A stretch of DNA of 64,000 nt, from the IMG/VR virus record IMGVR_UViG_3300047546_001733, positions 8,157 to 72,156 of that record; one strand, written 5' to 3'. This document shows, piece by piece, positions 1-63,995 of this stretch. Made by a program: the position numbers and the translations under genes. Each line of letters begins with the position of its first letter. Position 1 is the stretch's first letter. The DNA is from a virus. The notes beneath the pieces are model-generated. The model made no database searches. It was not told the DNA's origin and saw only the letters and a program-made list of their open reading frames with translations.

Positions 1-136
1 GATTACACTTTATTATAACATTGATTTTTCAATTTTAGTATTAAAATTAGATAAGAAATCTGCATTTTTGCAAATATATAAGTGCTAGTAAATTGAACGA
101 GGGGGCAGGGGGACCCCCTACCCCCTACCGTAGCGA

Positions 137-412
137 TTACACAGCGCATCCGGTACAGAGTCGTTCTCCAAAACGTGCATATGCTTCAGGTGACAAGTCA
201 GTGAGTTCACCACAACGGACACACTCACCATACAGTACCATTGTCGCACGCAGTTTCTGGTACTCCTCGCTCGCTTTTTTCTCCGCTTCCGCAGAGATTA
301 ATGGAGCGTGTAATCCTACACCACTGCGATAAGCATTTGCATCAAACCCATGAGGATTGCGAAAAATCCGCCGAGTAATTGACCGATTCATTCGCCATGT
401 ACGTTTACCCAT
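137..412 (-). CDS. Small Zn-finger protein (CxxC...CxxC), cassette gene
   Basis: ATG at 412 preceded by AGGAAAGGA RBS and GTGGTATACT -10 (436-441); CVRC...CTGC. Confidence 0.75.
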   Translation of the reverse strand: MGKRTWRMNRSITRRIFRNPHGFDANAYRSGVGLHAPLISAEAEKKASEEYQKLRATMVLYGECVRCGELTDLSPEAYARFGERLCTGCAV

Positions 413-517
413 AACACATCCTTTCCTACATATGTAGTATACCACAGATTACCTCTTTTTTACATTAAAGTAACATGAGAGTTGTAGGGGGTAGGGGGTG
501 ACCCACGCATGAAGACA

Positions 518-706
518 CTACTGAGTAAAGTCTTCTGGGCTTGGCTCGTGCACACTAAGAAAAGAAAAAGCCTCGTCCATATCATCAAAAAATTCTTCTA
601 GTTCTAATCCACATGAAGCGCAACAATCCCACGCACTACCATCACCAAATGTAATACCGCAGTGCAAACAAGTAAAATTAACGCCCGGTATTTCTACAGT
701 GGTCAT
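518..706 (-). CDS. Small Zn-ribbon protein with acidic tail
   Basis: CLHC...CASC; GGGAGAG RBS; second gene of its cassette. Confidence 0.75.
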   Translation of the reverse strand: MTTVEIPGVNFTCLHCGITFGDGSAWDCCASCGLELEEFFDDMDEAFSFLSVHEPSPEDFTQ

Positions 707-716
707 ACTTCTCTCC

Positions 717-800
717 CTACTTCCACATCAAATAAATAAAAATGACAAATAACGGTTTAATCAGCAGTAGCAACACAATCGCAGTTGAAAGTAGTAGCAC
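717..800 (-). CDS. 27-aa membrane micropeptide (family A)
   Basis: GTG start, AGGAG RBS; MLLLSTAIVLLLLIKPLFVIFIYLMWK; paralog of 5253-5336 and 2670-2753. Confidence 0.8.
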   Translation of the reverse strand: MLLLSTAIVLLLLIKPLFVIFIYLMWK

Positions 801-965
801 AGTGACTCCTTTACTTGATTACAATTTATTATAACACAGGTTTACTGGGGATTATATGAGAAATAGATAAGAGGCAACTCGCAATAACGCAAATAACTAA
901 GTGCGGGGTTTTTGGTCGATAAGGGGGTAGGGGGTCCCCCTACCCCCTAGTGTAAAGACTTTACA

Positions 966-1157
966 CTAGGCTTGCCGGAGGAGCTTGTGAAGTTCGTGTT
1001 CACAGCGGTGGATAGCGTCGATAGTCGGACCCGTTTCCCCACAGCACGGACACAGGAAAGGAAGGAGAAGGTCAAGCTTGCGGATTTCACGCTTTAGGGC
1101 GATGATGAGTAGGCGACGCTTCAGTGCCTTTTGTTGCTTGACGGTCTTCTTGTGCAT
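966..1157 (-). CDS. Basic helical protein with CPCC motif (family B)
   Basis: ORF track; GAAGGGGG RBS; TTGACA/TACAAT promoter; paralog of 4287-4466. Confidence 0.8.
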   Translation of the reverse strand: MHKKTVKQQKALKRRLLIIALKREIRKLDLLLPFLCPCCGETGPTIDAIHRCEHELHKLLRQA

Positions 1158-1320
1158 AGTAAACCCCCTTCATCTAACTTGATAATTTATTGTATCACGA
1201 ACGGAGCAGTTTGTCAATAGGCAATTTATTGTTTACAGCCCACCTAAAAGGTGTAAAGTGTTTCGCGGGGGAGGGGGACCCCCTACCCCCTACTGTAAAG
1301 TGTTTACAGCAGGGTTGTGC

Positions 1321-1488
1321 CTACAGATTGGGGATATGCTTGATGTTGTCAACACAGCCCAACAACACGCCGATGATGAAGCGGAAAACCGCAAAGACAC
1401 CACGCACAGCCACAAAACACAGTTTTAACGTGAGCATGATAGGGAACATGAGAACGTCGGCTACGGCACGGGTTGCGTTACTCTGCAT
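1321..1488 (-). CDS. 55-aa hydrophobic protein (family C)
   Basis: MQSNATRAVADVLMFPIMLTLKLCF...; AGGAG RBS; paralog of 4911-5081. Confidence 0.8.
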   Translation of the reverse strand: MQSNATRAVADVLMFPIMLTLKLCFVAVRGVFAVFRFIIGVLLGCVDNIKHIPNL

Positions 1489-1652
1489 TTGAGCACTCCT
1501 TGATTAACTTGATTACATCCTATTTTAGCACGGTTATAAAGGAATTGCAATAGACTTTTATGAAAATTAGATGAGAGAAAATATTTAACACGGTGTAAAC
1601 AGTTTAGGGGGTAGGGGGTGCCCCACTGTAAACACTTTACAGTGGGAGTCGA

Positions 1653-1859
1653 TTACGGGTTGAAGCGGATGCGCTTGTAGCCCGTGATGGTGAAGCCCTT
1701 CGACAACAAATCCCGCAACAGGAATTGCCCACGAGCGTCTGCCTCTTCCCGAGTCTTGAATGCGGCAGTCGTGATGCTGGTGCGCTCGCCGTTGAAAACA
1801 AACGACACTTTCACACCAAACATACCTACACCGTGAACACGATTCGCATATACCATCAT
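1653..1859 (-). CDS. Hypothetical cassette protein
   Basis: ORF track; AAGGAGAG RBS; GTGGTATAAT -10 at 1891-1896. Confidence 0.8.
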   Translation of the reverse strand: MMVYANRVHGVGMFGVKVSFVFNGERTSITTAAFKTREEADARGQFLLRDLLSKGFTITGYKRIRFNP

Positions 1860-2004
1860 AAAAACTCTCCTTAACTTCTCTTACATACGTATTATACCAC
1901 GGATAAGGGAAAACTTTTATGAGAACTAGATGAGAAATAATGCTTTACACCGTGTAAACAATTTAGGGGGGAGGGGGGACCCCATACCCCCTAGTGTAAA
2001 GTGT

Positions 2005-2157
2005 TTACTCCATCTTGGTAGCACAGTCAGGACAGAACAAGTAGGTTGCCTCACCTTGATGCTCGGGGTCATCTGGCAACAAATCAACCGCTACTAACTC
2101 ATCAAGGTCGAAGAGTTTCTCACAGTAATGGCAAGGAGTCAAAGAATCAGCAGTCAT
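2005..2157 (-). CDS. 50-aa acidic Zn-finger protein
   Basis: MTADSLTPCHYCEKLF...FCPDCATKME; GAAGGA RBS; TTGACA-17-TACAAT promoter. Confidence 0.8.
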   Translation of the reverse strand: MTADSLTPCHYCEKLFDLDELVAVDLLPDDPEHQGEATYLFCPDCATKME

Positions 2158-2297
2158 TGGAAAATCCTTCTATCTAACTTGATAATTCATTGTATCATGA
2201 ATTGGTACTGTTGTCAAGGGGTTTTTATGAGAATTACCTGATATTTATCTGATAAATAATTATTTACAATCCACCTAAAAGGTGTAAAGTGTTTACA

Positions 2298-2492
2298 CTA
2301 GCGGAGTTTCATGCGGGAAGCGGACTCCATGCACAGCGCACAACCGCACAAAATTTTGCTGACCAGCTTATGACGGCGAGCCTTGCGTTGTAACGCCACA
2401 AACTCCTCCCGAGTCATTTGCTCAAAGCCGTGCATGGTCAAAAACACCTTAAAGATGGTGTCACGCACAAGACGCATTTTTAATTCTTCCAC
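2298..2492 (-). CDS. Small basic protein with CGCALC motif
   Basis: GTG start, AAGGAG RBS, TTGACA/TAAAAT promoter. Confidence 0.75.
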   Translation of the reverse strand: MEELKMRLVRDTIFKVFLTMHGFEQMTREEFVALQRKARRHKLVSKILCGCALCMESASRMKLR

Positions 2493-2669
2493 AAAAAACT
2501 CCTTACCACCAAAAATTCAATTACATCCTATTTTAGCACGTAATCGGTGACTTGTCAATAGACTTTTATGAGAATTAGATGAGAAAAAATATTTGACAAG
2601 GTGTAAACAATTTAGGGGGTAGGGGGACCCCCTACCCCCTACTGTAAAGACTTTACAGCGGGGTGAGGA

Positions 2670-2753
2670 TTAGTCACGCCATAGTAAGCAGATTACAAGC
2701 ACAGCAAGCGGTTTTGAGATGATTACTAAGACCAAAAGCAGTTCGAGGCTCAT
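2670..2753 (-). CDS. 27-aa membrane micropeptide (family A)
   Basis: MSLELLLVLVIISKPLAVLVICLLWRD; AAGGAG RBS. Confidence 0.75.
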   Translation of the reverse strand: MSLELLLVLVIISKPLAVLVICLLWRD

Positions 2754-2763
2754 TCGGAACTCC

Positions 2764-2994
2764 TTACAGCTCAACGAACTTGAATCCGCCCTCGTCAATC
2801 ATTACCGCTTGCGAGTGAGTTGTGCCCCCGTCGGTTTCGAACTTGATGTCGAACACGCTACAGGTGGGGTCAGCGTGAAAAGAACCCCGCAATTCGTATT
2901 CAAGGTCTTCACGAAAACCGCCCACGTCGTCAATCTCACCTTGCAGGATGAACTCGAACTTTCCCTCACGGGTCACGGTTGCCTTCATGTACAT
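2764..2994 (-). CDS. Acidic alpha/beta protein (family D)
   Basis: ORF track; aligns by eye with 3153-3401 (MxMxAxVTxxGKF...DxxFE). Confidence 0.8.
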   Translation of the reverse strand: MYMKATVTREGKFEFILQGEIDDVGGFREDLEYELRGSFHADPTCSVFDIKFETDGGTTHSQAVMIDEGGFKFVEL

Positions 2995-3152
2995 AATGCG
3001 CCCTTTCTCTCGGCTACACAGTAATTATACCACAGATTTTTCAATTTTAAAATGAGAATTACATGAGAAATAATTCTTTACAAGGTGTAAACAATTTAGG
3101 GGGTAGGGGGTCCCCCTACCCCCTAGTGTAAAGGGTTTACACTAGGAGACGG

Positions 3153-3401
3153 TTAGCGATGGAGAAACTCGACGTCGCCCCTACCTGCACCATGTACCAC
3201 CGCTTTAAACTCGCTGACAAACGTACCAGTGGCGTCGGTGAACTCGAAGCGGACATCGACCAGACCGACCTCGCCACCTGTGGCAAAGGAAATCTCGTCC
3301 GCCAACGTTTGGGAGAACTCGGCGACATCTCCCTTAAACTCCTCGCAACGAACTTCAACGACAAATTTCCCGCCCTTGGTGACTACCGCACGCATACGCA
3401 T
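3153..3401 (-). CDS. Acidic alpha/beta protein (family D)
   Basis: ORF track; AAGGAG RBS; paralog of 2764-2994. Confidence 0.8.
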   Translation of the reverse strand: MRMRAVVTKGGKFVVEVRCEEFKGDVAEFSQTLADEISFATGGEVGLVDVRFEFTDATGTFVSEFKAVVHGAGRGDVEFLHR

Positions 3402-3414
3402 AATCTGGACTCCT

Positions 3415-3666
3415 TTATTTGATGTTTGCTTTTACGGAAAACTTCATTGAATCCATAGTTACTGAGATGACATGGTTTACATTTTTAATCACCAAATCAG
3501 TGTCGTTCACGTCATAGGCTGGTAACGCCATACCACCCAAGTAAATCGGCTCGTCGGTCATACGCACTAAGAACAGCGTCGTATACGTAGTATTTTCTTT
3601 TGTTTCTAGCGTTACTCGCAAATCGTGAAAACTTGCCGAAAATGGAAATTGATACTGTACTCGCAT
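3415..3666 (-). CDS. Hypothetical cassette protein
   Basis: ORF track; AAAGGGAG RBS; -10 at 3695-3700. Confidence 0.75.
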   Translation of the reverse strand: MRVQYQFPFSASFHDLRVTLETKENTTYTTLFLVRMTDEPIYLGGMALPAYDVNDTDLVIKNVNHVISVTMDSMKFSVKANIK

Positions 3667-3835
3667 AACACTCCCTTTCTGTCGGTTACATCTTATTATA
3701 CCATGCTTTTTCGATTTTGAATATGAGAATTAGATAAGAGATAATTCTTTACACAGTGTAAAGAGTTTTGCGGGGCGGGGGCACCCCCTACCCCCTAGTG
3801 TAAAGGGTTTACACCAGAAGATGAAACTCCTTACA

Positions 3836-4147
3836 CTATTCGCACTCTGGTGTTGATTCCTCGATTGGCTCGAATTGCTCGATGGCTCTCATCATAGCAC
3901 GCACCTGCTTGCGAATGATGCGCTTTGCGTGTTTCATAGCCTTTGAATGGTCGTGAATGTCGAACGGACGAACACGCTCACCAGCAAAGAAAATTGAAGA
4001 ATCCTCCTCGATGATACCGTCCTTCTGGACGATGTCCACACGAACCATGACCTTCTTTTCTTCGGGAATCTCGATGGCGACAACAATCGCCTCTTTCCAG
4101 CCACCAGCGAAGACCACAACGTGAGCGACGTGTTGCTCTTTTGGCAT
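3836..4147 (-). CDS. Hypothetical cassette protein
   Basis: ORF track; AAGGAGG RBS; -10 at 4177-4182. Confidence 0.8.
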   Translation of the reverse strand: MPKEQHVAHVVVFAGGWKEAIVVAIEIPEEKKVMVRVDIVQKDGIIEEDSSIFFAGERVRPFDIHDHSKAMKHAKRIIRKQVRAMMRAIEQFEPIEESTPECE

Positions 4148-4286
4148 ACCAGCCTCCTTACTAACCTTACACTAGAATTATACCACACTTTAGATTAAAA
4201 TAGTATGAAAATTAGATGAGAAATAATTGTTTACACAGTGTAAAGCGTGGGGGTAGGGGGACCCCCTACCCCCTACTGTAAACCAT

Positions 4287-4466
4287 TTACAGTGAGAAGA
4301 AAAACTCACGACGCAGTTCCATCAAAAATTGATGCGCCTCGTCTGCTTCACAGCATGGGCAAGCCATCGAGAGCATAAACTCCGCCCGCTTAATTGCACG
4401 CTTTAACTGAATCAAGCGTAAACGCTTCCGCAGTGCGAGCATTTGCTTTTGTGACTTTTTCCGCAT
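4287..4466 (-). CDS. Basic helical protein with CPCC motif (family B)
   Basis: MRKKSQKQMLALRKRLRLIQLKRAIKRAEFMLSMACPCCE...; GGAGG RBS; below the ORF-track cutoff. Confidence 0.8.
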   Translation of the reverse strand: MRKKSQKQMLALRKRLRLIQLKRAIKRAEFMLSMACPCCEADEAHQFLMELRREFFFSL

Positions 4467-4495
4467 TTTAGCCTCCGTTAAATAATGGACACGTT

Positions 4496-4747
4496 TTACA
4501 CCTGCACAATGTGCGCTTTAGATGTAACCGTATCACGAACAGCCACGGAATGAACAGTACCGCCATGAGTAGACGTAACGAACACGTCCAAAGAATCCAC
4601 CAACGGGAACATCGAGAACAGGAAGGAAGCCTCATCACGGACTACTTCCATCAAGAAAACAAACTCGCCGAACGTGCACACATCTTGACCAAACTCGGCA
4701 AATGTCTTCTCACCACCAGCAAGGCGAACGGTCACAAAATCAGTCAT
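4496..4747 (-). CDS. Hypothetical protein (possible distant family D member)
   Basis: ATG at 4747 with GAGAAAGGG RBS; GGTVHSVA resembles GGTTHSQA of 2764-2994. Confidence 0.7.
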   Translation of the reverse strand: MTDFVTVRLAGGEKTFAEFGQDVCTFGEFVFLMEVVRDEASFLFSMFPLVDSLDVFVTSTHGGTVHSVAVRDTVTSKAHIVQV

Positions 4748-4910
4748 GGCAAGCCCTTTCTCTTGTCTTACAGGTAAATTATACCACAAATGAGCAACGT
4801 TGAACATGAGAATTAGATGAGAAACAATGTTTTACACGGTGTAAAGAATTTAGGGGGTAGGGGGTGCCCCACGCCCCCAGTGTAAAGACTTTACACTAGG
4901 GGTTTTGCGG

Positions 4911-5081
4911 TTACATCGACGGAATCACCTTGAGCAATTCCAAACAGCTCAACACGACACCGACCAAGAAACGCAAGAGCGCACCGACCAAACGGACACA
5001 CACGACCAAAACCTTACACACAAGCAAGAACGGAAACATGAGAACGGCGGCGACCATGCGAGTTGCGTCAGACTTGTACAT
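4911..5081 (-). CDS. 56-aa hydrophobic protein (family C)
   Basis: MYKSDATRMVAAVLMFPFLLVCK...; GAGGAG RBS; paralog of 1321-1488. Confidence 0.8.
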   Translation of the reverse strand: MYKSDATRMVAAVLMFPFLLVCKVLVVCVRLVGALLRFLVGVVLSCLELLKVIPSM

Positions 5082-5252
5082 GAAGTTATCTCTCCTCTTC
5101 TCGGTTACAGTTAATTATACCACGCTTTTTCGATTTTGAATATTAGAATTAGATGAGAGGTAATTATTTACACAGTGTAAAGAGTTCGGCGGGGCACCCC
5201 CTACCCCCTACTGTAAAGTGTTTACAGTAGATGAGCGTGAATTACGCCCGCC

Positions 5253-5336
5253 TTACTTCCACATCAAATACACAATAACAGCAATAATGGGCTTGATGAG
5301 CAACAGCAGAACAATGCCAAAGGTTAGACCGAGCAT
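5253..5336 (-). CDS. 27-aa membrane micropeptide (family A)
   Basis: MLGLTFGIVLLLLIKPIIAVIVYLMWK; GAGGT RBS; own promoter. Confidence 0.8.
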   Translation of the reverse strand: MLGLTFGIVLLLLIKPIIAVIVYLMWK

Positions 5337-5487
5337 ACGCACCTCTTCTATTCGGTTACAGTTAATTATACCACGGCTTTTGAATTTTGAATATTAGAGA
5401 AAGATGATAGGTATCTGTTGAGCAATTCTTTACACGGTGTAAAGCGTTTAGGGGGTAGGGGGTCCCCCTGCCCCAAGTGTAAATAAT

Positions 5488-5512
5488 AAAACCCGCCGAT
5501 TACTCGGCGAGT
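5488..5512 (-). terminator. Intrinsic terminator after RNA cassette A
   Basis: ACTCGCCGA-GTAA-TCGGCGGGT hairpin followed by TTTATTATTT; homologous hairpin at 6328-6353. Confidence 0.65.
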
Positions 5513-5522
5513 GTAAATAGTT

Positions 5523-5623
5523 TGGGTCCCTACTCTGGATTCGAACCAGCGTTCGCTCCGAGTGAGTATCTAGAATCAATCGGATTTACCGCACCCACGG
5601 AATTTATTAAGCGATGTTAGGGC
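5523..5623 (-). ncRNA. tRNA-like structured RNA, unit 2
   Basis: CTGG-TTCGAAT-CCAG T arm, imperfect acceptor stem, 3' CCA; inner TCGC/GCGA stem encloses the conserved domain. Confidence 0.8.
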
Positions 5624-5629
5624 AAGTGT

Positions 5630-5729
5630 TGGTAAGAGGTGGATTCGAACCACCATGACACTCTAATGAAGGGTCTAGAATCCATTAGATTTACCGCACC
5701 TACGGAATGGATTAAGTGTCGTTCAAACC
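5630..5729 (-). ncRNA. tRNA-like structured RNA, unit 1
   Basis: GGTGG-TTCGAAT-CCACC T arm; GGTTTGA/TCTTACC acceptor-like stem; inner GACAC/GTGTC stem. Confidence 0.8.
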
Positions 5730-5778
5730 GTAATTTAGGTTAGTTTTGGGAAAGACCATCACTCAACCTTATGTACTA

Positions 5779-5807
5779 AGTATACCACTGGCTAGATTTC
5801 TTGTCAA
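5779..5807 (-). promoter_or_regulatory. Consensus sigma70-type promoter for RNA cassette A
   Basis: TTGACA-17-(TG)nTATACT; no RBS or ORF downstream. Confidence 0.85.
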
Positions 5808-6028
5808 GGGGCAATTTGAATTTCAAAATGAGAATTAGATGAGAATTGTTTTTTTCGTATCTGCATCTTTGCGGGCAGATGTGGTAGGGGGTAGGGGGTG
5901 CCCCTACCTGTACTGTATTTATTTTGATGTAATTTTTGTTTTTAAATTGAAATTTCAATTTTATTTTTTTTTCTTTTATATTTAAAACAAAGTTTGCACT
6001 CAGATAAAAACTGAGAATAAAAGTATTG

Positions 6029-6165
6029 TGGTCTCTCTGAAGTTAACCCCCCTCAGAGACTCAGGGACCAAGTTAAGAGAGTGACTCTTCTGAGAGGGGT
6101 ATTTCACCCTCACGTCGGTACGAAGTAGTGAGTCCGTGGACTACTTACCGCTCTCTTAACTTGAT
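6029..6165 (-). ncRNA. Structured non-coding RNA cassette
   Basis: TTGACA-17-TACAAT promoter (6171-6199); a perfect 13-bp stem (6069-6081 / 6151-6163) encloses two hairpins; 3' hairpin ends GACCA; no ORF. Confidence 0.7.
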
Positions 6166-6363
6166 AATTCATTGTATCATGAATGAACAACCTTGTCAAG
6201 AGAGTTTTATGAGAATTAGATGAGTTTCTCTCATATGTTGGTGGGGCGGCGTGAGAATGACTCTATAACCGAGTGTAAAGAGTTTTAGGGGCGGGGGGAC
6301 CCCCTACCCCCACACCAGTGTAAATAATAAACCCGCCGGATTTACCGACGGGTGTAAATAGTT

Positions 6364-6469
6364 TGGTCTCTCCCAACAGGATTCGAACCTGCTTGCTGGT
6401 CTTACAGAGTATCTAGAATCCATAAGATTTACCGTACCCACGGATTTGGTTTAACCAGCATTAGGAGGA
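6364..6469 (-). ncRNA. tRNA-like structured RNA, unit 4
   Basis: GCAGG-TTCGAAT-CCTGT T arm, CTCCTA/TGGGAG stem, 3' ACCA; inner TGCTGG/CCAGCA stem. Confidence 0.8.
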
Positions 6470-6474
6470 TGGTC

Positions 6475-6573
6475 TGGTCTGAGGTGGAATCGAACCACCG
6501 TTCCGGTCTTGTCAGAGTCTAGAATCCACAAGAGGTACCGCACCTACGGTATGTTTTAACCGGAGTTCAGTCC
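6475..6573 (-). ncRNA. tRNA-like structured RNA, unit 3
   Basis: GGTGG-TTCGATT-CCACC T arm; GGACTGA/TCAGACC acceptor-like stem; inner TCCGG/CCGGA stem. Confidence 0.8.
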
Positions 6574-6622
6574 ACAAATTAGGCAGTTAGCGGGGAAACC
6601 GTTCACTTAACCTTATGTACTA

Positions 6623-6651
6623 AGTATACCACGGTTAATGTGCTGTGTCAA
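6623..6651 (-). promoter_or_regulatory. Consensus sigma70-type promoter for RNA cassette B
   Basis: TTGACA-17-(TG)nTATACT; same leader TAGTACATAAGGTT as cassette A. Confidence 0.85.
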
Positions 6652-6978
6652 GTGACTATTATGAGAATTACATGAGAATGGCGCGCGTTACATACAGTAA
6701 TTATCCGCCCGCCACATACCTAAGTGCATTACCATAGGGGGTAGGGGGTACCCTCTTTATTCTTCTACCGCTTCCAGATGCTGTATATTGGCAAATATAT
6801 ATTAAGCCATTGTAATAAGTGCCTTTTTTTAGGGGGTAGGGGGTGTCCGCTGGTTGCGAACCGCGCTTCGTTATGTCGAGTGGGGTTTATGGCTTCCTAA
6901 TGCGGTAAAATGCTTATTGACATGTTCGATATAACACGTTATACTGCATACATCGCACATAGAGAGGAGGTGAGCACG

Positions 6979-7122
6979 ATGGTTTGCGACATATGCGGGG
7001 AAAAAGTCACAGCAAACGAGATTGATGACAGGGTATCAACACCATTTTTTACATGCTGTGATTTTTGCTCAAATTCTTGCGTAATGGTAGAACAAGATGA
7101 CGACATGGGTGATGATGAGTAG
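6979..7122 (+). CDS. Small acidic Zn-finger protein
   Basis: TTGACA-17-TATACT at 6917-6945, GAGGAGG RBS; CDIC...CDFC. Confidence 0.7.
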   Translation: MVCDICGEKVTANEIDDRVSTPFFTCCDFCSNSCVMVEQDDDMGDDE

Positions 7123-7137
7123 TAGTAATGCAGAGGA

Positions 7138-7866
7138 GTGTGTATCATGGGTATTCTTGAATTCGTGGTAGTTTTGGCATTATCGTTGTTTGTGGCATTG
7201 AATGCCACGGCAAACACGCCAAAAGAGTACAAACCGGCATTGTTCACAGTGGTTTTCTTGTTGTGTATGTGTGTGTCGTCTTTCGTGGTGGTCATCATGT
7301 TAGAAAGTGAGTATATGATGGGTGGCATTCCGATTACCGGTGTGATATTGCGTAACATGTGGCATGCATGTGTCTATGCTAGTGTAAGCGACGCCAATGG
7401 TGGTCTGTCGCATACAAGTGTAATGACCCGTCTCCTAATGAAAAATGACATGTCCGAACTGCATACGCCATATGGCGTCCTTTGCGGTAAAGATGCGTTT
7501 AGGGGTGTAGAAAGCATTTTCGGTAAAAAGGATACTACGTCCATAAAACGACTGTTATATGGGACAGAGATGGTAGAATGCAGTATCCACGGTTTACAAC
7601 GGGGTGACTTTGGGCACGTCTTTCCACGTAGTTTAGGCGGTGTTATGAGACTTGAGCATAAAAGTATGAATGGCTATTGGTTTGAATTGCAACAAGTGAT
7701 GCCCCATAACAATGCCGACAATCTACGATTAGTCAATACTGTTCTTGAATGCTCTATCTGTAATCGCATAAAACGTGAACAAGTCTCACATGATGCGCAA
7801 CTTTACCTATCTAATCTACCAATCGTCATCAACGGTAAGATATACGAAGGTTTTAAGGTGTCATAG
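7138..7866 (+). CDS. HNH-family endonuclease with N-terminal hydrophobic segments
   Basis: GHVFPRSLGG...NTVLECSICNRIK resembles the HNH motif; two predicted TM helices at the N-terminus. Confidence 0.6.
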   Translation: MCIMGILEFVVVLALSLFVALNATANTPKEYKPALFTVVFLLCMCVSSFVVVIMLESEYMMGGIPITGVILRNMWHACVYASVSDANGGLSHTSVMTRLLMKNDMSELHTPYGVLCGKDAFRGVESIFGKKDTTSIKRLLYGTEMVECSIHGLQRGDFGHVFPRSLGGVMRLEHKSMNGYWFELQQVMPHNNADNLRLVNTVLECSICNRIKREQVSHDAQLYLSNLPIVINGKIYEGFKVS

Positions 7867-7889
7867 ACGCAACACACACAAAACACGGT

Positions 7890-7918
7890 TTGCCCCCATG
7901 CGCAAGCATGGGGGCATA
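7890..7918. terminator. Hairpin between convergent transcription units
   Basis: TGCCCCCATGC-GCAA-GCATGGGGGCA followed by an A run (U tract on the minus strand). Confidence 0.7.
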
Positions 7919-8000
7919 AAAATGCTCAAAAAGTATCTGTTGGCGACCATGCACAGACCCTTACAAATTTTTAAAAGGTACCCTTTGGTTTTAGCACTCA

Positions 8001-8040
8001 CAACCCCTCACAACCCCTCACAATCCCTTACAATCCCTTA
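8001..8040. repeat. 4 x 10-bp tandem repeat CAA(C/T)CCCT(C/T)A
   Basis: Read directly from the sequence. Confidence 0.9.
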
Positions 8041-8261
8041 CGGATACTCACGAGGAGCAAGGGAGTACGGAATGACCAGCGATAGCAAAAGTGTACCAGT
8101 GAAATAGGAAAAAAAGAGTGCACACGCTTCCATTGGTACAAAACTTGTCGTATCAAAGTATGCAAGAAGAATACCGGCTACCACCGTATACCGAGTAAAT
8201 AAAAACGGTACTTGAAGTAAAAAAAGAGGGTCACTCTGGTAGTCTGGTAGCCAGTCATACA

Positions 8262-10743: not shown

Positions 10744-11850
10744 TTATTTTTGTCTGTCAAGCCAGTACTTAATACGAGCCTCTGCAATTTCATTGTACTC
10801 AGCACTAAGGTCAACACCTATATAAGAAAATCCTGCATTAACAGCCGCACAACCCGTTGTACCACTTCCAGAAAACGGGTCAAGTACTGTACCAGACGGT
10901 GGAGTAATCATGCGAATAAGGTACTCCATAAGGGTAACTGGCTTCACTGTTGGGTGCTTGTTGCTTTGTGCTTCTTCAAGACCAGCCGATTTTTCTGTAG
11001 GTGACGGCTTAGCTACATAGAAAAAACGTGAGGCTGTATTACTTTGCTCATCAAGTATTTTTGCAGATTCCTCATCAAATATCACATTGGCAGTCCATCT
11101 CCCAAGTGGAGACGCTGGATTTGAAAAAGTGTATTCGTCGCTTTTTATACCAACGTAACCCCTAGTTCTTGGGGTAAGTCCCTTTCTACCGTAGTCTTCG
11201 TCGGTTGCAATTCGTGTTCCATCAATGTTAAGAGCACCAACACCCCACTCAAGTAAATTACTTGCTACCGTACCTAAAAATGGTTTACGAGCGAGCACTG
11301 CGGGTTCATTGGCGGGCTTCAACGCCGTGCCCCAGCCGTGCCACTGCTGAGCTTCGGGCGTGACGGGAATATTACTGTCGTGTTCGTGATAGCCCTGTTG
11401 TCGTGCTTTGGTTAACCATGGTCTTGCGTCTAATTCATTAGAACTGCCCTTACCTGCTGTAGAATGTGGTGTAATTGGCGTTTTTACTTTCTCCCGCATC
11501 GCCCCCGCTTGCCTATCCAATGCCTTGCTGACATCAAGCGATTTCGGAAACCCCGAGCCATAAATCCATTGAATGCAGTCCCGTATTTCAAATCCTGCGT
11601 CTTCAATAGCGCAGGTCATGCGATGGTACGTTCGTGCTCCACCGAAAGAAATTAAATGACCCCCCGGCTTTAATACACGAAGTACCTCTTTCCAGAGGTC
11701 GGTATTGTTTGCAATACCTGATTTATCCCACCCCTTATTCATAAATCCTATTTCATACGGAGGGTCAGTAACTACACTGTCGATAGAATTGTCTGGTAGT
11801 GTTCTTAAAACATTTATTGAATTACCCGTGTATAGTTCGTATTTTACCAT
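10744..11850 (-). CDS. N4-C/N6-A DNA methyltransferase (beta class)
   Basis: TDPPY, HPTVKP, DPFSGSGTTG. Confidence 0.92.
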   Translation of the reverse strand: MVKYELYTGNSINVLRTLPDNSIDSVVTDPPYEIGFMNKGWDKSGIANNTDLWKEVLRVLKPGGHLISFGGARTYHRMTCAIEDAGFEIRDCIQWIYGSGFPKSLDVSKALDRQAGAMREKVKTPITPHSTAGKGSSNELDARPWLTKARQQGYHEHDSNIPVTPEAQQWHGWGTALKPANEPAVLARKPFLGTVASNLLEWGVGALNIDGTRIATDEDYGRKGLTPRTRGYVGIKSDEYTFSNPASPLGRWTANVIFDEESAKILDEQSNTASRFFYVAKPSPTEKSAGLEEAQSNKHPTVKPVTLMEYLIRMITPPSGTVLDPFSGSGTTGCAAVNAGFSYIGVDLSAEYNEIAEARIKYWLDRQK

Positions 11851-51319: not shown

Positions 51320-52282
51320 ATGGCTAAGAACGTTACATTTGAGGGATTGATGATGGGTACATTTAGTAAGGAACACACGTATTTCCCGTCGAGTATGCCA
51401 TCAGTAAACAGAGCACTCGGGAATATGCAGGGTATTCAAGGTGGAAGTATTGTGCAATTACTTGCTGAACCGGGTCACGGTAAGACTACACTCGCCTTAG
51501 ACTTTATTGCACAGGCACAAAAATCAGGAGTGCGTTCGATTACTATCAAAATGGGTAAAGTCGAGCAAGAGATTAATGCTGTTTTCGTAGACCTAGAACG
51601 CACATTCGACCCTGAATACGCCCAGCGTATAGGAGTAGACTTGAATAAACTCGCCGTGTATAAACCAGACTTCGCAGAAAAAGCACTACCAACTCTGGAG
51701 CACTTGCTCGAGCAAGGTTTGCAACTGATTGTATTTGATAGTGTACCAGCGATGATTACAAAGGATGAATTCGAAAAGGATGTTGACGAACCAGCCCGTA
51801 TGGCAGGTAGCGCAAATATTCTTTCTCGTTGGCTTATCCGCTTGATTGGTCTGGTAGATAATTCGGACGCACTGTTTATTTTTATTAATCAGTACCGTGC
51901 AAATCTTAGTCCAATGGCACGGAGCGAAAAGAAACCGTTTGGTCCTAGAGCACTTCGGTACTTCTGTAAAATTATTTTGGAACTGGTTAAAATTAAAACA
52001 GAAGAAGACCGCTCGACAATTCAGTTAACGGTGAGTAAAAATAAACAAGCACCTGAAGGTATGAAAGTAGACTATCTTATGCTTAAAGGTAAGGGGTGCT
52101 CACAAGCACATGACATTTTCTACCTCGCTGTGGAAATGGGCATTGTAACAAAGAGCGGTTCTTGGTATGAGTACAAGGGACAAAAATCACAGGGAATTGA
52201 CTCTGCAATAGGCGCATTCCCAATGGACGAAATAAAAGCCAAAGTAGAGCAGGAGTTAGAAAATGAACTTAGCCCACGATAA
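51320..52282 (+). CDS. recA: RecA/UvsX-like recombinase
   Basis: EPGHGKTT, DLE, FDSVPAM, FINQ.R, G.RAL, KNK, SGSWY. Confidence 0.9.
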   Translation: MAKNVTFEGLMMGTFSKEHTYFPSSMPSVNRALGNMQGIQGGSIVQLLAEPGHGKTTLALDFIAQAQKSGVRSITIKMGKVEQEINAVFVDLERTFDPEYAQRIGVDLNKLAVYKPDFAEKALPTLEHLLEQGLQLIVFDSVPAMITKDEFEKDVDEPARMAGSANILSRWLIRLIGLVDNSDALFIFINQYRANLSPMARSEKKPFGPRALRYFCKIILELVKIKTEEDRSTIQLTVSKNKQAPEGMKVDYLMLKGKGCSQAHDIFYLAVEMGIVTKSGSWYEYKGQKSQGIDSAIGAFPMDEIKAKVEQELENELSPR

Positions 52283-55484: not shown

Positions 55485-55568
55485 GCCGAGGTGGTGAAAT
55501 GGCAGACACGTTAGTCTTAGAAGCTAATGACGCAAGTCATGAGGGTTCAAGTCCCTCTCTCGGCACCA
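55485..55568 (+). tRNA. tRNA-Leu(TAG)
   Basis: Cloverleaf with long variable arm, CT-TAG-AA loop, encoded CCA. Confidence 0.93.
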
Positions 55569-55570
55569 AA

Positions 55571-55753
55571 GCCACAAGATGCGAGTTGAAAACCTATCTA
55601 GTGTTCGCCTAAAGATTTTTAGAAAATCTTTACCCAGCTGGATTTCTAGAAGTTGCATCTCTACAACTTACTAGTAGGGTATTCTTGGCTATCGCGGGTG
55701 CCGTTGCACCTGAGAGAAATCTCGTGCAGGTTCGAATCCTGTCTGTGGCACCA
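55571..55753 (+). ncRNA. 183-nt tRNA-like RNA (acceptor + T arm, large inserted domain)
   Basis: GCCACA/TGTGGC-ACCA, GCAGG-TTCGAAT-CCTGT, GCGAG/CTCGT stem; no D arm. Confidence 0.75.
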
Positions 55754-55775
55754 TTTTATTATAGAAAGAGATACT

Positions 55776-56117
55776 ATGACGAAGTCAGTGAACGTTTTTT
55801 TTCAGCAGTACAGTGAGGGTATTGACACGTATTTTGGTAAATTTGTTCTTGAGCCTAAAACTGATGTTAATTATTTTTTCAAGGTACATCTATATAAAAA
55901 CAGCCCACAAGGTATTGCATTTAATTATATTTTTTATCATACCGCAGAAAATTACTACACATCACACCCGCTTAATCCTCTACACGCTAACATAGGTCAA
56001 TATTACACAGAGCGTTTAGAGTGGTTACCTGCTGATATGGTTTATTGTTTCCGTGCAATATTTGACATACCTCCGGTTACCATGACAACTAACTGGTCTG
56101 AGTTTATGTTAAAATAG
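55776..56117 (+). CDS. Hypothetical protein
   Basis: ATG after GAAAGAGA, downstream of the RNA element. Confidence 0.6.
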   Translation: MTKSVNVFFQQYSEGIDTYFGKFVLEPKTDVNYFFKVHLYKNSPQGIAFNYIFYHTAENYYTSHPLNPLHANIGQYYTERLEWLPADMVYCFRAIFDIPPVTMTTNWSEFMLK

Positions 56118-56132
56118 TTCCTTCGGGAACAT

Positions 56133-56207
56133 GCCTTTATCGTATAGTGGTTATTACAACTGATTTGTAACCAGTTAACTACGGTTCGATTCCGTATAAA
56201 GGCTCCA
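56133..56207 (+). tRNA. tRNA-Thr(TGT)
   Basis: GCCTTTA/TAAAGGC, TT-TGT-AA loop, TTCGATT, CCA. Confidence 0.88.
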
Positions 56208-56268
56208 CATATATTGACAAAGACTAGTCAATGTGCTATACTGTCTAAGTAATAGAAAGGATTCTAGA

Positions 56269-56892: not shown

Positions 56893-56904
56893 CTCTAGTC
56901 AATT

Positions 56905-56980
56905 GCCGATATAGCTTAATGGATAAAGCAACAGCCTTCTAAGCTGTTTAGTAGGGGTTCGAGTCCCTTTATCGGTACCA
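56905..56980 (+). tRNA. tRNA-Arg(TCT)
   Basis: GCCGATA/TATCGGT, CT-TCT-AA loop, CCA. Confidence 0.92.
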
Positions 56981-57020
56981 ACCGCTGTAGCGGTAAATTC
57001 ACTAAAATTAAGGAAATTCA

Positions 57021-57566: not shown

Positions 57567-57587
57567 AAAAAGGAAAGGCTAGTTTCT

Positions 57588-58274: not shown

Positions 58275-58281
58275 GAGTGCT

Positions 58282-60815: not shown

Positions 60816-60858
60816 CAACGTACTCGGCATATGGTAGAATACAAGCAAGGAGAAACAA

Positions 60859-61266: not shown

Positions 61267-61283
61267 TAACCATGAGGTTAACA

Positions 61284-63898: not shown

Positions 63899-63995
63899 GG
63901 GAGGTAGGGGGTAGGGGGTAGGGGGTCCCCCTCCCCGCTCCGTAAGAAAACCCCCACGCCATTACTGGCTGGGGGCTTCTTTGTAGTGTAAAGGG
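63899..63995. repeat. Further copy of the cassette-boundary repeat
   Basis: GGGGGTAGGGGGTAGGGGGTCCCCCTCCCC plus AGTGTAAAG, same motifs as 1-6850. Confidence 0.8.

What the first reader, a model, noticed from the sequence alone, without database searches (positions are those of the whole stretch)
1..6850. Modular array of ~17 self-contained expression cassettes bounded by a composite palindromic repeat
Seen, in gene direction: stop codon, TAGTGTAAA-NNN-TTTACACTA hairpin, GGGGGTAGGGGG[A/T]CCCCCTACCCCC palindrome, TTTACAC-NN-TGTAAA, TCTCAT-N5-TCTCAT, extended -10, RBS, then 1-2 tiny genes or an ncRNA. The unit repeats every ~250-700 bp and all units are co-oriented. Promoter/leader subfamilies recur with unrelated cargo: TACAAT-RAATTATCAAGTTA heads the 966 ORF, the 2005 ORF and the 6029 ncRNA; TAAAAT-AGGATGTAAT heads the 1321 and 2298 ORFs. 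That implies cargo shuffling. Established precedent: PeSL (promoter-early stem-loop) cassettes in T4-type phages and integron arrays, though this repeat matches neither as far as I can tell. No site-specific recombinase is present in the window. Inference: an exchangeable early host-takeover/anti-defence platform reshuffled by the phage RecA via the repeats.
Basis: partly seen in the sequence, partly recalled or inferred. Interest (0 to 1): 0.85.

Follow-up and report, generated by a model that had tools for sequence, protein, structure and literature searches.

The report
Repeat-bounded gene cassette array in phage
A freshwater phage carries a 15-kb row of nearly 30 tiny self-contained gene units separated by one conserved promoter-plus-hairpin repeat, and related phages differ by whole units gained, lost or swapped at that repeat, which is the gene-shuffling design first described in T4-like phages.

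Summary
The window is part of a 72,156-bp phage genome. The array runs on the minus strand for about 15 kb, and the window holds its first 17 units. Each unit has four parts:
- an extended -10 promoter, preceded by a TCTCAT-N5-TCTCAT box;
- a strong ribosome-binding site;
- 1-2 ORFan genes or a tRNA-like RNA;
- a 3' boundary made of an AT-rich hairpin plus a G5TAG5/C5TAC5 palindrome.

All motifs are confined to the array and are far above chance.

Relatives support shuffling. One contig is 99% identical outside the array but lacks two whole cassettes, with crossovers inside the repeat. The two indels assort independently among contigs, and neighbouring cassettes carry 86-88% versus 99-100% alleles in different combinations. 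A further relative has a different cassette order. No tyrosine or serine recombinase is encoded. A RecA is.

Best reading: a PeSL-type promoter/terminator boundary that also provides portable homology for recombination, found here in a phage that is not T4-like. Early timing, terminator activity, cargo function and RecA's role are inferred, not shown. One feature is unexpected: the palindrome is conserved as sequence, with no compensatory changes and with half-sites that lack a hairpin. Verdict: a new variant of a known kind, of moderate interest.

The parts
6737..6843 (-). Two orphan C5TAC5 half-sites (6832-6843 and 6737-6748) at the head of the array. They sit next to the divergent plus-strand genes.
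6287..6677 (-). Unit 1.
- TCTCAT box 6661-6677
- TTGACA 6646-6651
- TGGTATACT 6623-6631
- tRNA-like pair B1 (6467-6581) and B2 (6358-6475)
- canonical terminator 6331-6353
- palindrome 6287-6311
5887..6225 (-). Unit 2.
- box 6209-6225
- TTGACA 6194-6199
- TGATACAAT 6171-6179
- structured RNA at about 5995-6165, with no ORF that has an SD
- AT-rich stretch
- shifted hairpin/half-site 5887-5908
5451..5844 (-). Unit 3.
- box 5828-5844
- TTGACA 5802-5807
- TGGTATACT 5779-5787
- tRNA-like pair A1 (5620-5740) and A2 (5515-5632)
- terminator 5491-5512
- palindrome 5451-5475
5197..5443 (-). Unit 4.
- AT-rich inverted repeat 5429-5443
- TGGTATAAT 5365-5373
- 27-aa hydrophobic peptide ORF 5253-5336
- hairpin 5212-5226
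- G5TAG5 arm 5197-5208, with a degenerate partner arm
4853..5181 (-). Unit 5.
- inverted repeat 5167-5181
- box 5142-5158
- -10 at 5114-5122
- 56-aa membrane-like ORF 4911-5081, a paralogue of 1321-1488
- hairpin 4881-4895
- palindrome 4853-4877
4249..4845 (-). Unit 6.
- box 4806-4822
- -10 at 4778-4786
- ORFs 4496-4747 (83 aa) and 4287-4466 (59 aa)
- hairpin 4277-4291
- palindrome 4249-4273

This whole cassette is absent from contig A and from one contig of run X12.
3771..4244 (-). Unit 7.
- box 4205-4221
- -10 at 4177-4185
- ORF 3836-4147 (103 aa, ORFan)
- hairpin 3799-3813
- palindrome 3771-3795

The cargo is 88% identical to contig A and L018, and 99.7% identical to L019.
3099..3762 (-). 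Unit 8.
- box 3723-3739
- -10 at 3695-3703
- ORFs 3415-3666 and 3153-3401
- hairpin 3127-3141
- palindrome 3099-3123

This whole cassette is absent from contigs A, L018 and L019. The crossover lies in the hairpin and left palindrome arm.
2615..3091 (-). Unit 9.
- box 3052-3068
- -10 at 3024-3032
- ORFs 2764-2994 (76 aa) and 2670-2753 (27 aa)
- hairpin 2643-2657
- palindrome 2615-2639

The cargo is 100% identical to contig A and 86% identical to L019.
2283..2584 (-). Unit 10.
- box 2568-2584
- TTGACA 2553-2558
- TGCTAAAAT 2530-2538
- ORF 2298-2492 (64 aa)
- hairpin 2283-2297

The palindrome is missing here but is present at this place in L019. The difference is a deletion between 12-nt direct repeats.
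1966..2243 (-). Unit 11.
- 11-bp phased ATCAG/TCTCAT repeats 2227-2265
- TTGACA 2212-2217
- TGATACAAT 2189-2197
- ORF 2005-2157 (50 aa, CxxC...CxxC)
- palindrome 1966-1991
1607..1958 (-). Unit 12.
- inverted repeat 1944-1958
- box 1919-1935
- -10 at 1891-1899
- ORF 1653-1859 (68 aa)
- hairpin 1627-1641
- C5TAC5 half-site 1607-1618, which stays unpaired in the RNA fold
1266..1576 (-). Unit 13.
- box 1560-1576
- TTGCAA 1545-1550
- TGCTAAAAT 1522-1530
- ORF 1321-1488 (55 aa)
- hairpin 1294-1308
- palindrome 1266-1290
923..1217 (-). Unit 14.
- TTGACA 1212-1217
- TGATACAAT 1189-1197
- ORF 966-1157 (63 aa, a paralogue of 4287-4466)
- hairpin 951-965
- palindrome 923-947

The promoter region is replaced in contigs A and L019 and in runs X6, X8 and X12.
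487..872 (-). Unit 15.
- box 856-872
- -10 at 828-836
- ORFs 717-800 (27 aa) and 518-706 (62 aa)
- an unrelated hairpin
- C5TAC5 half-site 487-498, unpaired in the RNA fold
101..444 (-). Unit 16.
- TGGTATACT 436-444
- ORF 137-412 (91 aa, C-terminal CxxC pairs)
- palindrome 101-125
1..56 (-). Unit 17 promoter: box 40-56 and TGTTATAAT 12-20. Its cargo and about 11 further units lie beyond the window's left edge, at genome 80-8156.
63900..63925 (-). The last boundary of the array, reached across the junction of the circular assembly. It is a tandem of G5TA units followed by a C-run. The two overlapping ends of the assembly carry 2 and 3 units respectively.
51320..52282 (+). Phage RecA (PF00154, E 4.5e-35). 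It is a candidate catalyst of repeat-to-repeat exchange, but that role is inferred only.

Best explanation
The minus-strand arm of this roughly 72-kb freshwater phage (genome 15000 down to 80; window 6850 down to 1 is its first part) is a tandem array of nearly 30 autonomous small transcription units.

**Shown by sequence**
- Each unit starts with a promoter of host sigma70 type, in one of two forms:
  - an extended -10 without a -35, with a TCTCAT-N5-TCTCAT box starting exactly 36 nt upstream of the TG;
  - a TTGACA-17-extended -10 promoter, with the same box one helical turn further upstream.
- A conserved leader and a strong SD follow.
- The unit carries 1-3 ORFan genes or a structured tRNA-like RNA.
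- It ends in a boundary: an AT-rich hairpin directly after the stop codon, followed by the G5TAG5-N-C5TAC5 hairpin.

**Inferred**
- The boundary terminates or attenuates read-through and stabilises the 3' end, so each unit is expressed on its own, probably early, by host RNA polymerase.

**Shown by comparison with relatives**
- The 60-150-bp boundary-plus-promoter block is repeated in direct orientation. It is the place where relatives have exchanged, lost, gained and re-ordered cassettes.

**Inferred**
- The exchanges are ordinary homologous recombination (phage RecA and nucleases, or the host's), together with slipped mispairing at the hairpins. No dedicated recombinase is needed.

This is the PeSL principle of T4-type phages, realised in an unrelated phage with its own very uniform repeat.
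For: **Anatomy and enrichment**
-.
- Promoter scan: 22 sites against 11.0 +/- 3.2 expected. The six best minus-strand sites are TTGACA-17-TAnAAT preceded by TG.
- Box phasing. Of 29 extended -10-like sites:
  - 14 have the box at 35-36 nt, and all 14 match a -35 in at most 4 of 6 positions;
  - 5 have it at 46 nt, with TTGACA in 4 and TTGCAA in 1;
  - 1 has it at 47 nt and 1 at 57 nt;
  - 8 have no box.
- Hairpin stability: full boundaries fold at -32 to -34 kcal/mol, against -19 to -23 for shuffles (z -3.5 to -4.2).

**Exchange at the repeats**
- Contig A is 99.1-99.4% identical to this genome over 10 kb outside the array. It lacks window 3142-3664 and 4291-4806, with 150-nt and 90-nt overlaps of the flanking alignments.
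- Crossover 1 falls in a 33-nt identical stretch of hairpin plus left palindrome arm.
- Crossover 2 falls in the TCTCAT box. A run-X12 contig with sides of 415 and 432 nt and 14 shared letters shows the same joint, while a run-X6 contig spans the cassette intact.
- The two indels assort independently: this genome +/+, L018 +/-, contig A -/-.
- Allele mosaic:
  - the 3836-4147 cassette is 88.1% identical to contig A and 99.7% to L019;
  - the 2764-2994 cassette is 100% identical to contig A and 86.4% to L019.
- L009 has a cassette order that deletions alone cannot derive from this genome.
- The box spacer differs by lineage: CTAAT in 6 of 10 boxes here, CTTCC in 4 of 7 in L003. That is concerted evolution.

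**Machinery**
- No PF00589, PF00239 or PF01797 match in the genome.
- A RecA and two PD-(D/E)XK nucleases are encoded.

**Precedent**
- PMC2839356, sections 13, 16 and 21.
Against: - There are no expression data. No listed run is RNA, so promoter use, early timing and termination are untested.
- The tail after the palindrome is a poor U-tract. Only 3 palindromes pass a simple terminator scan.
- The RNA-gene units have a canonical terminator in front of the palindrome. The palindrome may therefore not be the terminator.
- The palindrome shows no compensatory change in 36 distinct boundary elements. Six of 11 pairs never vary and 5 depart only by breaking the pair. Yet the neighbouring hairpin covaries (GC 16 versus CG 12 at one pair).
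- At window 487-498 and 1607-1618 the C-rich arm persists without a partner.
- The C5TAC5 arm on the gene strand is exact about twice as often as the G5TAG5 arm (22 versus 11).
- These last three points suggest a sequence-specific role that a plain hairpin model does not explain.
- Not every breakpoint lies in a repeat. The 88% allele of the 103-aa gene ends in mid-ORF.
- Paralogous cargo genes sit as first or second genes of different units.
Confidence: 0.7

Rival explanations
1. The G5TAG5/C5TAC5 element is a sequence-specific recognition site for a phage or host protein. It could be read as DNA, or as RNA through its C-rich arm. The protein would mark unit boundaries and actively target recombination or insulation, so the array would work as an integrase-free gene-capture platform rather than shuffling passively.
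For: - No compensatory change in the palindrome across 36 elements, while the adjacent hairpin covaries.
- Half-sites are kept without a hairpin.
- The two arms are conserved asymmetrically.
- The same core palindrome follows canonical terminators in this phage's RNA units.
- It also occurs about 12 times in L015, a 9-kb contig with no tblastx similarity to this genome.
- The PeSL authors proposed a GGGG...CCCC binding protein themselves (PMC2839356, section 21).
Against: - No candidate binding protein was identified.
- The elements for one search were selected by requiring at most 1 mismatch in the C5TAC5 arm, which limits what could vary.
- Concerted evolution by frequent repeat-to-repeat recombination would also keep the sequence uniform.
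- One crossover lies in the TCTCAT box, not in the palindrome.
Confidence: 0.17
2. The hairpins are mainly RNA processing or stability sites, as with the RNase III sites of the T7 early region (recalled). Transcripts would read through several units, and the hairpins would define stable 3' ends rather than terminate transcription.
For: - There are two adjacent stable hairpins directly after each stop codon.
- The U-tracts are weak.
- All units are co-oriented, so read-through is possible.
Against: - Almost every unit has its own strong promoter, so processing of a polycistron is not needed.
- This reading does not explain conservation of the sequence, as opposed to the structure.
- It is compatible with the recombination role and does not replace it.
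Confidence: 0.08
3. The palindrome is a selfish miniature palindromic element of REP/BIME or MITE type. It would have spread into intergenic sites, and the array structure would be a by-product.
For: - Its position is extragenic, just after stop codons.
- It contains a GTAG core, a feature of REP elements (recalled).
- It is present in an unrelated contig with different flanks (L015).
Against: - No Y1 transposase is encoded in the genome.
- No bacterial genome among 185,579 species representatives holds the exact palindrome.
- The palindrome always sits in one fixed order with the promoter module, at quantised distances of 40-43, 63-66 and 76-77 nt to the -10.
- It is absent from the other 57 kb of the genome.
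Confidence: 0.04
4. The apparent shuffling is an artefact of metagenome assembly across repeats.
For: - Logan contigs break at the repeats.
- Several joints have sides of only 22-30 nt.
Against: - The same junctions recur in independent records. The 4291-4806 deletion is seen in IMG/VR contig A and in a run-X12 contig with more than 400 nt on each side.
- The 3142-3664 deletion is seen in contig A, L018 and L019.
- Run X5 and run X6 contigs span the two cassettes intact.
- Allele differences of 12-14% inside cassettes cannot come from misjoining.
Confidence: 0.01

Closest known systems
PeSL (promoter-early stem-loop) cassettes of T4-type phages (Arbiol et al. 2010, PMC2839356, sections 13, 16 and 21 read; Comeau et al. 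2014, PMC4122927, abstract read)
   Same: - A composite repeat of a sigma70-type promoter plus a stable stem-loop, often a G-run followed by a C-run.
- It sits in front of ORFans in a hyperplastic region.
- Close relatives differ by ORFan insertions, deletions and replacements at the motif.
- No dedicated recombinase is known. Exchange is attributed to the phage's general recombination system.
   Different: - The host virus is not T4-like: a 72-kb genome with a family-A DNA polymerase whose best phage matches are at most 29% identical.
- The units form one contiguous co-oriented 15-kb array rather than scattered hyperplastic regions.
- The stem-loop lies upstream of the whole promoter instead of in five variable positions in or around it, and it is nearly invariant in sequence.
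- The repeat has extra modules: two AT-rich inverted repeats and a phased TCTCAT direct repeat.
- Mini-circles and promoter or terminator activity were shown for PeSLs but could not be tested here.
Conserved TATA-box-like motif plus inverted repeat before most ORFs on the left side of haloarchaeal virus HGTV-1 (as described in PMC3950731, one passage read, citing Sencilo et al. 2013)
   Same: - A promoter-plus-inverted-repeat motif precedes most ORFs of one genome arm.
- The authors interpreted it as PeSL-like regulation and shuffling.
   Different: - It is an archaeal virus with an archaeal promoter type.
- I saw no comparative breakpoint evidence in the passage I read.
Host-takeover module of Bacillus phage SPO1 (PMC6873191, passages read)
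   Same: - A region of about 12 kb holding some two dozen small, highly expressed early genes.
- The genes sit in many short operons, each with its own strong promoter and ribosome-binding site.
   Different: - The passages I read describe no conserved boundary repeat and no cassette exchange.
- SPO1 cargo proteins have shown toxicity or known host targets, whereas the cargo here is untested.
Integron cassette arrays
   Same: - A co-oriented row of small, exchangeable single-gene cassettes.
- Imperfect palindromes separate the cassettes.
   Different: - No IntI-type tyrosine recombinase is encoded.
- Each unit has its own promoter, rather than sharing a common Pc.
- The palindrome is conserved in sequence. 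By recall, attC sites are conserved in structure and vary in sequence.
REP/BIME extragenic palindromes of bacteria (recalled)
   Same: - GC-rich palindromes just after stop codons.
- They can stabilise 3' ends and serve as recombination substrates.
   Different: - The palindrome here is in a phage and is confined to one arm.
- It is fused to a promoter module.
- No RAYT transposase is encoded, and it is absent from the bacterial genomes scanned.

Membership tests
PeSL regulatory cassette | The repeat contains a sigma70-type (early) promoter. | tested here: met
   - Consensus scans only.
- 17 TGnTATAAT on the array's minus strand against 0 on its plus strand.
- Six TTGACA-17-extended -10 sites.
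-.
PeSL regulatory cassette | An adjacent stable stem-loop, often poly-G then poly-C. | tested here: met
   - An 11-12-bp G5TAG5/C5TAC5 stem.
- Full boundaries fold at -32 to -34 kcal/mol, z -3.5 to -4.2.
-.
PeSL regulatory cassette | Placed in front of ORFans in a hypervariable region. | tested here: met
   - 33 cargo ORFs give only DUF or weak matches.
- The 103-aa cargo has 2 clusters among 5.8 billion proteins.
- The array is 95-96% identical to contig A, against 99% for the flanking genome.
PeSL regulatory cassette | Indels and replacements between close relatives are bounded by the motif. | tested here: met
   Two cassette indels with crossovers in the repeat, one promoter replacement and an allele mosaic..
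PeSL regulatory cassette | Promoter and terminator activity shown by reporter assays; circular excision products. | not testable with these tools
   Only assembled contigs of DNA runs were available. No raw reads and no RNA run were available.
PeSL regulatory cassette | Resident in a T4-type myovirus genome (the family as originally defined). | tested here: not met
   - 72,156-bp genome.
- Family-A DNA polymerase (phrog_17). Its best phage matches are 26-29% identical and belong to Pseudanabaena and Thermus phages.
- It therefore works like a PeSL but is not a member of the T4-type set.
Integron | IntI tyrosine recombinase next to the array. | tested here: not met
   PF00589 has 0 matches in the genome, and the control hit all 14 of 14 genomes. 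PF00239 also has 0 matches.
Integron | Promoterless cassettes expressed from one common promoter. | tested here: not met
   28-29 promoter-like sites, about one per unit.
REP/BIME with RAYT | A cognate Y1 (RAYT) transposase. | tested here: not met
   PF01797 has 0 matches in the phage genome. The host is unknown, so a host-encoded enzyme could not be checked.
Intrinsic (Rho-independent) terminator | A GC-rich hairpin followed directly by a U-tract. | tested here: inconclusive
   - The hairpin requirement is met.
- Only 3 palindromes have at least 5 T in the 8 nt after the stem.
- The two RNA-gene units have separate canonical terminators upstream of the palindrome.

The most novel reading that the evidence does not exclude
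The invariant G5TAG5/C5TAC5 element is not just a terminator hairpin. It would be a recognition site for a dedicated factor, still unidentified, that marks cassette boundaries and directs recombination or insulation. On this reading the array is an integrase-free, integron-like gene-capture platform. The same signal would be used by unrelated freshwater phage lineages, as contig L015 suggests, and would move protein genes, tRNAs and a new class of paired tRNA-like RNAs alike.
Probability: 0.17. Interest if true: 0.8.

Novelty: new variant of a known kind. Interest (0 to 1): 0.55.

Why it matters
- PeSL-mediated shuffling was shown in T4-type phages and suggested for one archaeal virus. Here the same design appears in an unrelated, uncultured and widespread freshwater phage. 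Its array region is held, at 42% or more of sampled words, by 20 runs of 16 studies.
- The form is unusually pure: one 15-kb arm made only of such units.
- Natural-population evidence already shows single cassettes being gained, lost and exchanged at the repeat.
- This supports the view that promoter/terminator linkers are a general route by which phages trade accessory genes.
- The strict sequence conservation of the palindrome makes an open question from the PeSL work directly testable: does a specific protein act at the G-run/C-run stem?
- The cargo is a compact set of candidates for early phage functions: ORFans, 27-aa membrane peptides, small CxxC proteins and paired tRNA-like RNAs.

Tried and rejected
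**Searches that found nothing useful**
- blastn of window 1-7000 against 50,697 phage records: no match.
- Exact palindrome in one genome per 185,579 bacterial and archaeal species: 0. No host clue came from this.
- Rfam at gathering scores found only the 4 known tRNAs. At E up to 10 on window 5400-6900, only chance-level hits appeared, the best being tRNA at 19.5 bits against a 29-bit threshold.
- ARAGORN calls none of the four tRNA-like modules at default settings. At lowered thresholds its calls are inconsistent.
- TROVE/Ro60 (PF05731): 0 matches, so there is no support for a Y-RNA reading of the RNAs.
- PF04542 sigma region 2: 0 matches.
- PF00940 phage RNA polymerase: 0 matches, but the control hit nothing anywhere, so this is uninformative.
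- ESM Atlas for the 103-aa cargo: no usable hit.
- The L015-type palindrome in viral contigs: 0.
- The tRNA-like motif pair in viral contigs: only contig A plus two unrelated hits.

**Sequencing runs**
- No RNA holder is listed among the runs.
- Window 3277-3744 has no cover in runs X6, X8 and X12, and no contig joins across it there. I did not use this as evidence.
- Joints with sides under 31 nt (128>3095, 842>5815, 1903>4247, 2294>4250, 5525>5690) were not counted, because they may be repeat-induced assembly joins.

**Tools and files not available**
- The first try of a viral scan did not complete, and I repeated it.
- The supplementary figures of PMC2839356, which hold the reporter assays, were not seen.

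**Readings rejected**
- Integron: no integrase, and each unit has its own promoter.
- N4-type hairpin promoter for a virion RNA polymerase: every unit has a sigma70-type promoter, and the palindrome's distance to the start varies.
- Chi-like protective array: there is no way to test it without knowing the host.

Full report
**1. What the window is**

The window is bases 8157-72156 of a 72,156-bp virus record. The two ends of the record overlap by about 175 bp, so it was assembled as a circle. CheckV estimates it as 94% complete.

It encodes:
- a terminase, a portal and a ribonucleotide reductase;
- a family-A DNA polymerase;
- a DnaB helicase, a primase, RecA and two PD-(D/E)XK nucleases;
- Mom and ThyX, and DNA methyltransferases.

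It has no nucleotide match among 50,697 phage records. Its polymerase is at most 29% identical to any of them. Runs that hold the array region are almost all freshwater metagenomes: 20 runs of 16 studies, of which 4 may be the source. The host is unknown.

**2. The observation**

All genes in window 1-6850 lie on the minus strand.
- CCCCCTACCCCC with up to 1 mismatch occurs 26 times in the window, against 0.06 expected. Of these, 23 lie in 1-6850 and 3 at 63900-63925.
- In the whole genome, all 24 merged palindrome sites lie between 80 and 14988.
- The array is therefore about 15 kb long, and the window holds only its promoter-proximal 6.85 kb. The 63900-63925 site is the array's last boundary, reached across the assembly junction.
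- TGnTATAAT occurs 17 times on the minus strand of the array, 0 times on its plus strand, and 4 times in the other 57 kb.
- The TCTCAT-N5-TCTCAT box (up to 3 mismatches) occurs 20, 1 and 0 times in the same three compartments.
- The window has 17 co-oriented promoter-like sites spaced 251-671 bp.

The unit is modular. In the window:
- the post-stop hairpin (xGTGTAAA-N3-TTTACACx) is present in 10 of 17 units;
- the second inverted repeat (TTTACAC-N2-GTGTAAA) is present in 7 of 17;
- the box is present in 14 of 17;
- 11 boundaries have both palindrome arms, 6 sites keep one good arm, and one boundary (2297) has none.

A third subfamily, TTGACA-17-TGGTATACT-TAGTACATAAGGTT, heads two RNA units.

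**3. Promoter architecture**

One search examined 29 extended -10-like sites in the array.

| Box start, nt upstream of the TG | Sites | -35 element |
|---|---|---|
| 35-36 | 14 | at most 4 of 6 matches in every case |
| 46 | 5 | TTGACA in 4, TTGCAA in 1 |
| 47 | 1 | 4 of 6 (TGTACA) |
| 57 | 1 | TTGACA |
| no box | 8 | one of these lies inside a 240-aa ORF and is probably chance |

- The box thus abuts the -35 position where no -35 exists. Where a -35 does exist, the box sits one or two helical turns further upstream.
- Its two 6-mers are 11 bp apart.
- The 6-mers are conserved in the distant relative L003, while the spacer between them differs: CTTCC in 4 of 7 boxes there, CTAAT in 6 of 10 here.
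- This is what a protein-binding direct repeat would look like, whether for an activator, for an early shut-off repressor or as an UP-like element. The binder is unknown and this step is inference.
- Whether the units are immediate-early or need a factor cannot be told from sequence.

**4. The boundary**

- Full boundaries fold into two adjacent hairpins at -32 to -34 kcal/mol, against -19 to -23 for shuffles (z -3.5 to -4.2).
- In 36 distinct boundary elements from this genome and its relatives, the AT-rich hairpin covaries. One pair is G-C in 16 and C-G in 12, and the outer pairs also change on both sides.
- The palindrome shows no compensatory change. Six of 11 pairs never vary and 5 depart only by losing the pair. 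One caveat applies: the elements were collected by requiring at most 1 mismatch in the C-rich arm.
- The C5TAC5 arm on the gene strand is exact 22 times in the genome, and the G5TAG5 arm 11 times.
- At 487-498 and 1607-1618 the C-rich arm is kept without a partner and is unpaired in the fold.
- Only 3 palindromes are followed by a T-rich tail that passes a simple terminator scan.
- The two tRNA-like units have canonical terminators 20-40 nt before the palindrome.
- A hairpin-terminator or attenuator role, as shown experimentally for PeSL stem-loops (PMC2839356, section 13), is therefore the most economical reading. It does not explain the sequence invariance.

**5. Relatives**

The exact palindrome is found in 3 other IMG/VR contigs and 14 metagenome contigs, and in none of the bacterial genomes scanned.

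*Contig A (IMG/VR, 53.6 kb):*
- It is 99.1-99.4% identical to this genome over 10 kb beyond the array, but 95-97% identical inside it.
- It lacks window 3142-3664 (two ORFs) and 4291-4806 (two ORFs).
- It has another sequence in place of window 1157-1228.

*Crossovers:*
- The first deletion's crossover lies in a 33-nt stretch shared by the two flanking repeats, covering the hairpin plus the left palindrome arm.
- The second deletion's crossover lies in the TCTCAT box.
- An 847-nt contig of run X12 shows the same joint (4209>4811), with 415 and 432 nt on its sides and 14 shared letters.
- A 1448-nt contig of run X6 spans the cassette intact, and a 701-nt contig of run X5 spans 3113-3813.

*Independent assortment:* this genome has both cassettes, L018 has the first only, and contig A has neither.

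*Allele mosaic:*

| Cassette | Identity to contig A | Identity to L018 | Identity to L019 |
|---|---|---|---|
| 3836-4147 | 88.1% | 88.1% | 99.7% |
| 2764-2994 | 100% | 100% | 86.4% |

These combinations require recombination between the two cassettes. The divergent stretch of the 88% allele starts just after the -10 and leader but ends in mid-ORF. Breakpoints are therefore not confined to repeats.

*Further differences:*
- In contigs A and L019, and in contigs of runs X6, X8 and X12, the 63-aa gene (966-1157) is preceded by a promoter region of the type that heads the 2005 ORF here.
- At 2297 this genome lacks the palindrome that L019 has. The difference is a deletion between 12-nt direct repeats that flank the palindrome, the signature of slipped mispairing rather than of RecA.
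- L009 orders its shared cassettes so that the 68-aa and 64-aa units (here at 1653-1859 and beyond the window's left edge) stand before the 76-aa unit (here at 2764-2994). Deletions alone cannot produce that order.
- Other fragments place the 55/56-aa and 59/63-aa families next to different neighbours.
- L003, whose shared genes are 68-73% identical at the DNA level, has the same repeat architecture.

It is not met.

**6. Cargo**

- Of 33 array ORFs, Pfam gives 4 family matches at E up to 0.01: two DUFs, a weak zinc-finger and a weak GP88. Two of the four fall on the same 240-aa protein.
- PHROGs gives 9 family matches, none with a description; the five traced to individual proteins are all categorised 'unknown function'.
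- PADLOC gives 1 weak match.
- The 103-aa protein has 2 clusters among 5.8 billion proteins and no Atlas neighbour.
- Several cargo genes are paralogues inside the array:
  - three 27-aa hydrophobic peptides;
  - two 55/56-aa membrane-like proteins (50% identical);
  - two 59/63-aa CxxC proteins (49% identical);
  - a 76/82-aa pair (33% identical).
- These paralogues sit in different unit contexts.
- 'Host-takeover/anti-defence' is a reasonable guess by analogy with SPO1 (PMC6873191, passages read), but nothing here tests it.

**7. Machinery**

- The genome has no Phage_integrase, Resolvase or Y1 transposase match.
- RecA is encoded at window 51320-52282.
- The exchanges need nothing more than general homologous recombination over 60-150 bp of 80-100% identity, plus slippage. 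Which enzyme acts is inference.

**8. Comparison with what is known**

- That paper also speculates that the GGGG...CCCC stem may be the target of a specific DNA-binding protein.
- A PeSL-like motif was also noted in the haloarchaeal virus HGTV-1 (PMC3950731, one passage read).
- A full-text search for PeSL terms from 2011 onward found no report in other bacterial virus groups.
- A search for the 12-mers found no phage paper among the 10 of 46 listed.
- The present array works like a PeSL system but is not part of the T4-type set.
- It differs in four ways: it is one contiguous arm, it has a nearly invariant palindrome, it has extra modules, and it carries RNA genes as cargo.
- It is not an integron.

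**9. Verdict**

- The shuffling interpretation is supported by comparative and population data.
- The functional labels (early, host-takeover, RecA-driven) are untested.
- Novelty: a new variant of a known kind.
- The most novel reading not excluded is that the palindrome is a specific recognition signal that directs boundary function or recombination (probability about 0.17).

Noticed in passing
window 5515-5740 and 6358-6585 (minus strand): There are four copies, in two tandem pairs, of a tRNA-like RNA module of about 105 nt. Each pair has its own TTGACA promoter and a canonical terminator.
- Each module has an acceptor-like stem, a T-arm with a UUCGAAU loop, and a long arm that splits into two hairpins: a conserved CCG-UGGGUG-CGG hairpin, and a covarying hairpin with a conserved GAUUCUAGA loop.
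- 9 of 22 predicted pairs show compensatory changes among the 4 copies.
- A variant in contig A ends in a perfect 7-bp acceptor stem followed by ACCA and has a different loop.
- A homologue in L014 swaps a pair in the conserved hairpin.
- ARAGORN and Rfam do not call the modules.
- The function is unknown. By recall, they resemble the stable tRNA-like RNAs C and D of T4.
   Followed up: partly
- It has a 13-15-bp closing stem formed by its two ends, two internal hairpins, a further hairpin and a terminator-like end.
- Homologues in L011, L014 and L017 keep the closing stem and carry a true T-arm (GGTTCGAATCC) inside it.
- No Ro60/TROVE gene is in the genome, and there is no Rfam match.
   Followed up: partly
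L015 (metagenome contig, 9235 bp): This is an unrelated element, with no tblastx match to this genome at E 1e-4. It carries about 12 copies of a near-identical G5TAG6/C6TAC4-5 palindrome every 360-1500 bp. Read on its minus strand, each copy sits 9 nt after a canonical hairpin-plus-T8 terminator, and some are followed by ATTCCCTAGG-type tandem repeats. This could reflect convergence or a shared signal.
   Followed up: partly
window 6953-8041: The plus-strand genes next to the head of the array (the 70-aa and 242-aa ORFs) are only about 72% identical to contig A, or are unalignable. The genome beyond them is 99% identical. The hypervariable zone thus extends past the array.
   Followed up: no
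window 63900-63925 and genome 80-98: The two overlapping ends of the assembly differ by one G5TA unit, with 3 units at one end and 2 at the other. This suggests slippage or population heterogeneity in this G-run tandem.
   Followed up: no
L013 270-422: In a related array fragment the cargo of one unit is two ordinary tRNA-Glu genes (anticodons CTC and TTC), followed by the hairpin and the palindrome. In this genome the four tRNA genes lie elsewhere, at window 55485-62762.
   Followed up: no
window 2225-2265; also L006, L007, L014, L017: In some units the TCTCAT box is replaced or extended by 11-bp phased ATCAGGTAAAT-type direct repeats. This again points to a phased protein-binding array upstream of the promoters.
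   Followed up: no
window 56233-56892, 10744-11850, 57021-57566, 59572-60162, 57588-58274: The genome encodes a Mom-family protein (E 5.9e-41), several DNA methyltransferases and ThyX. The phage DNA is probably heavily modified.
   Followed up: no
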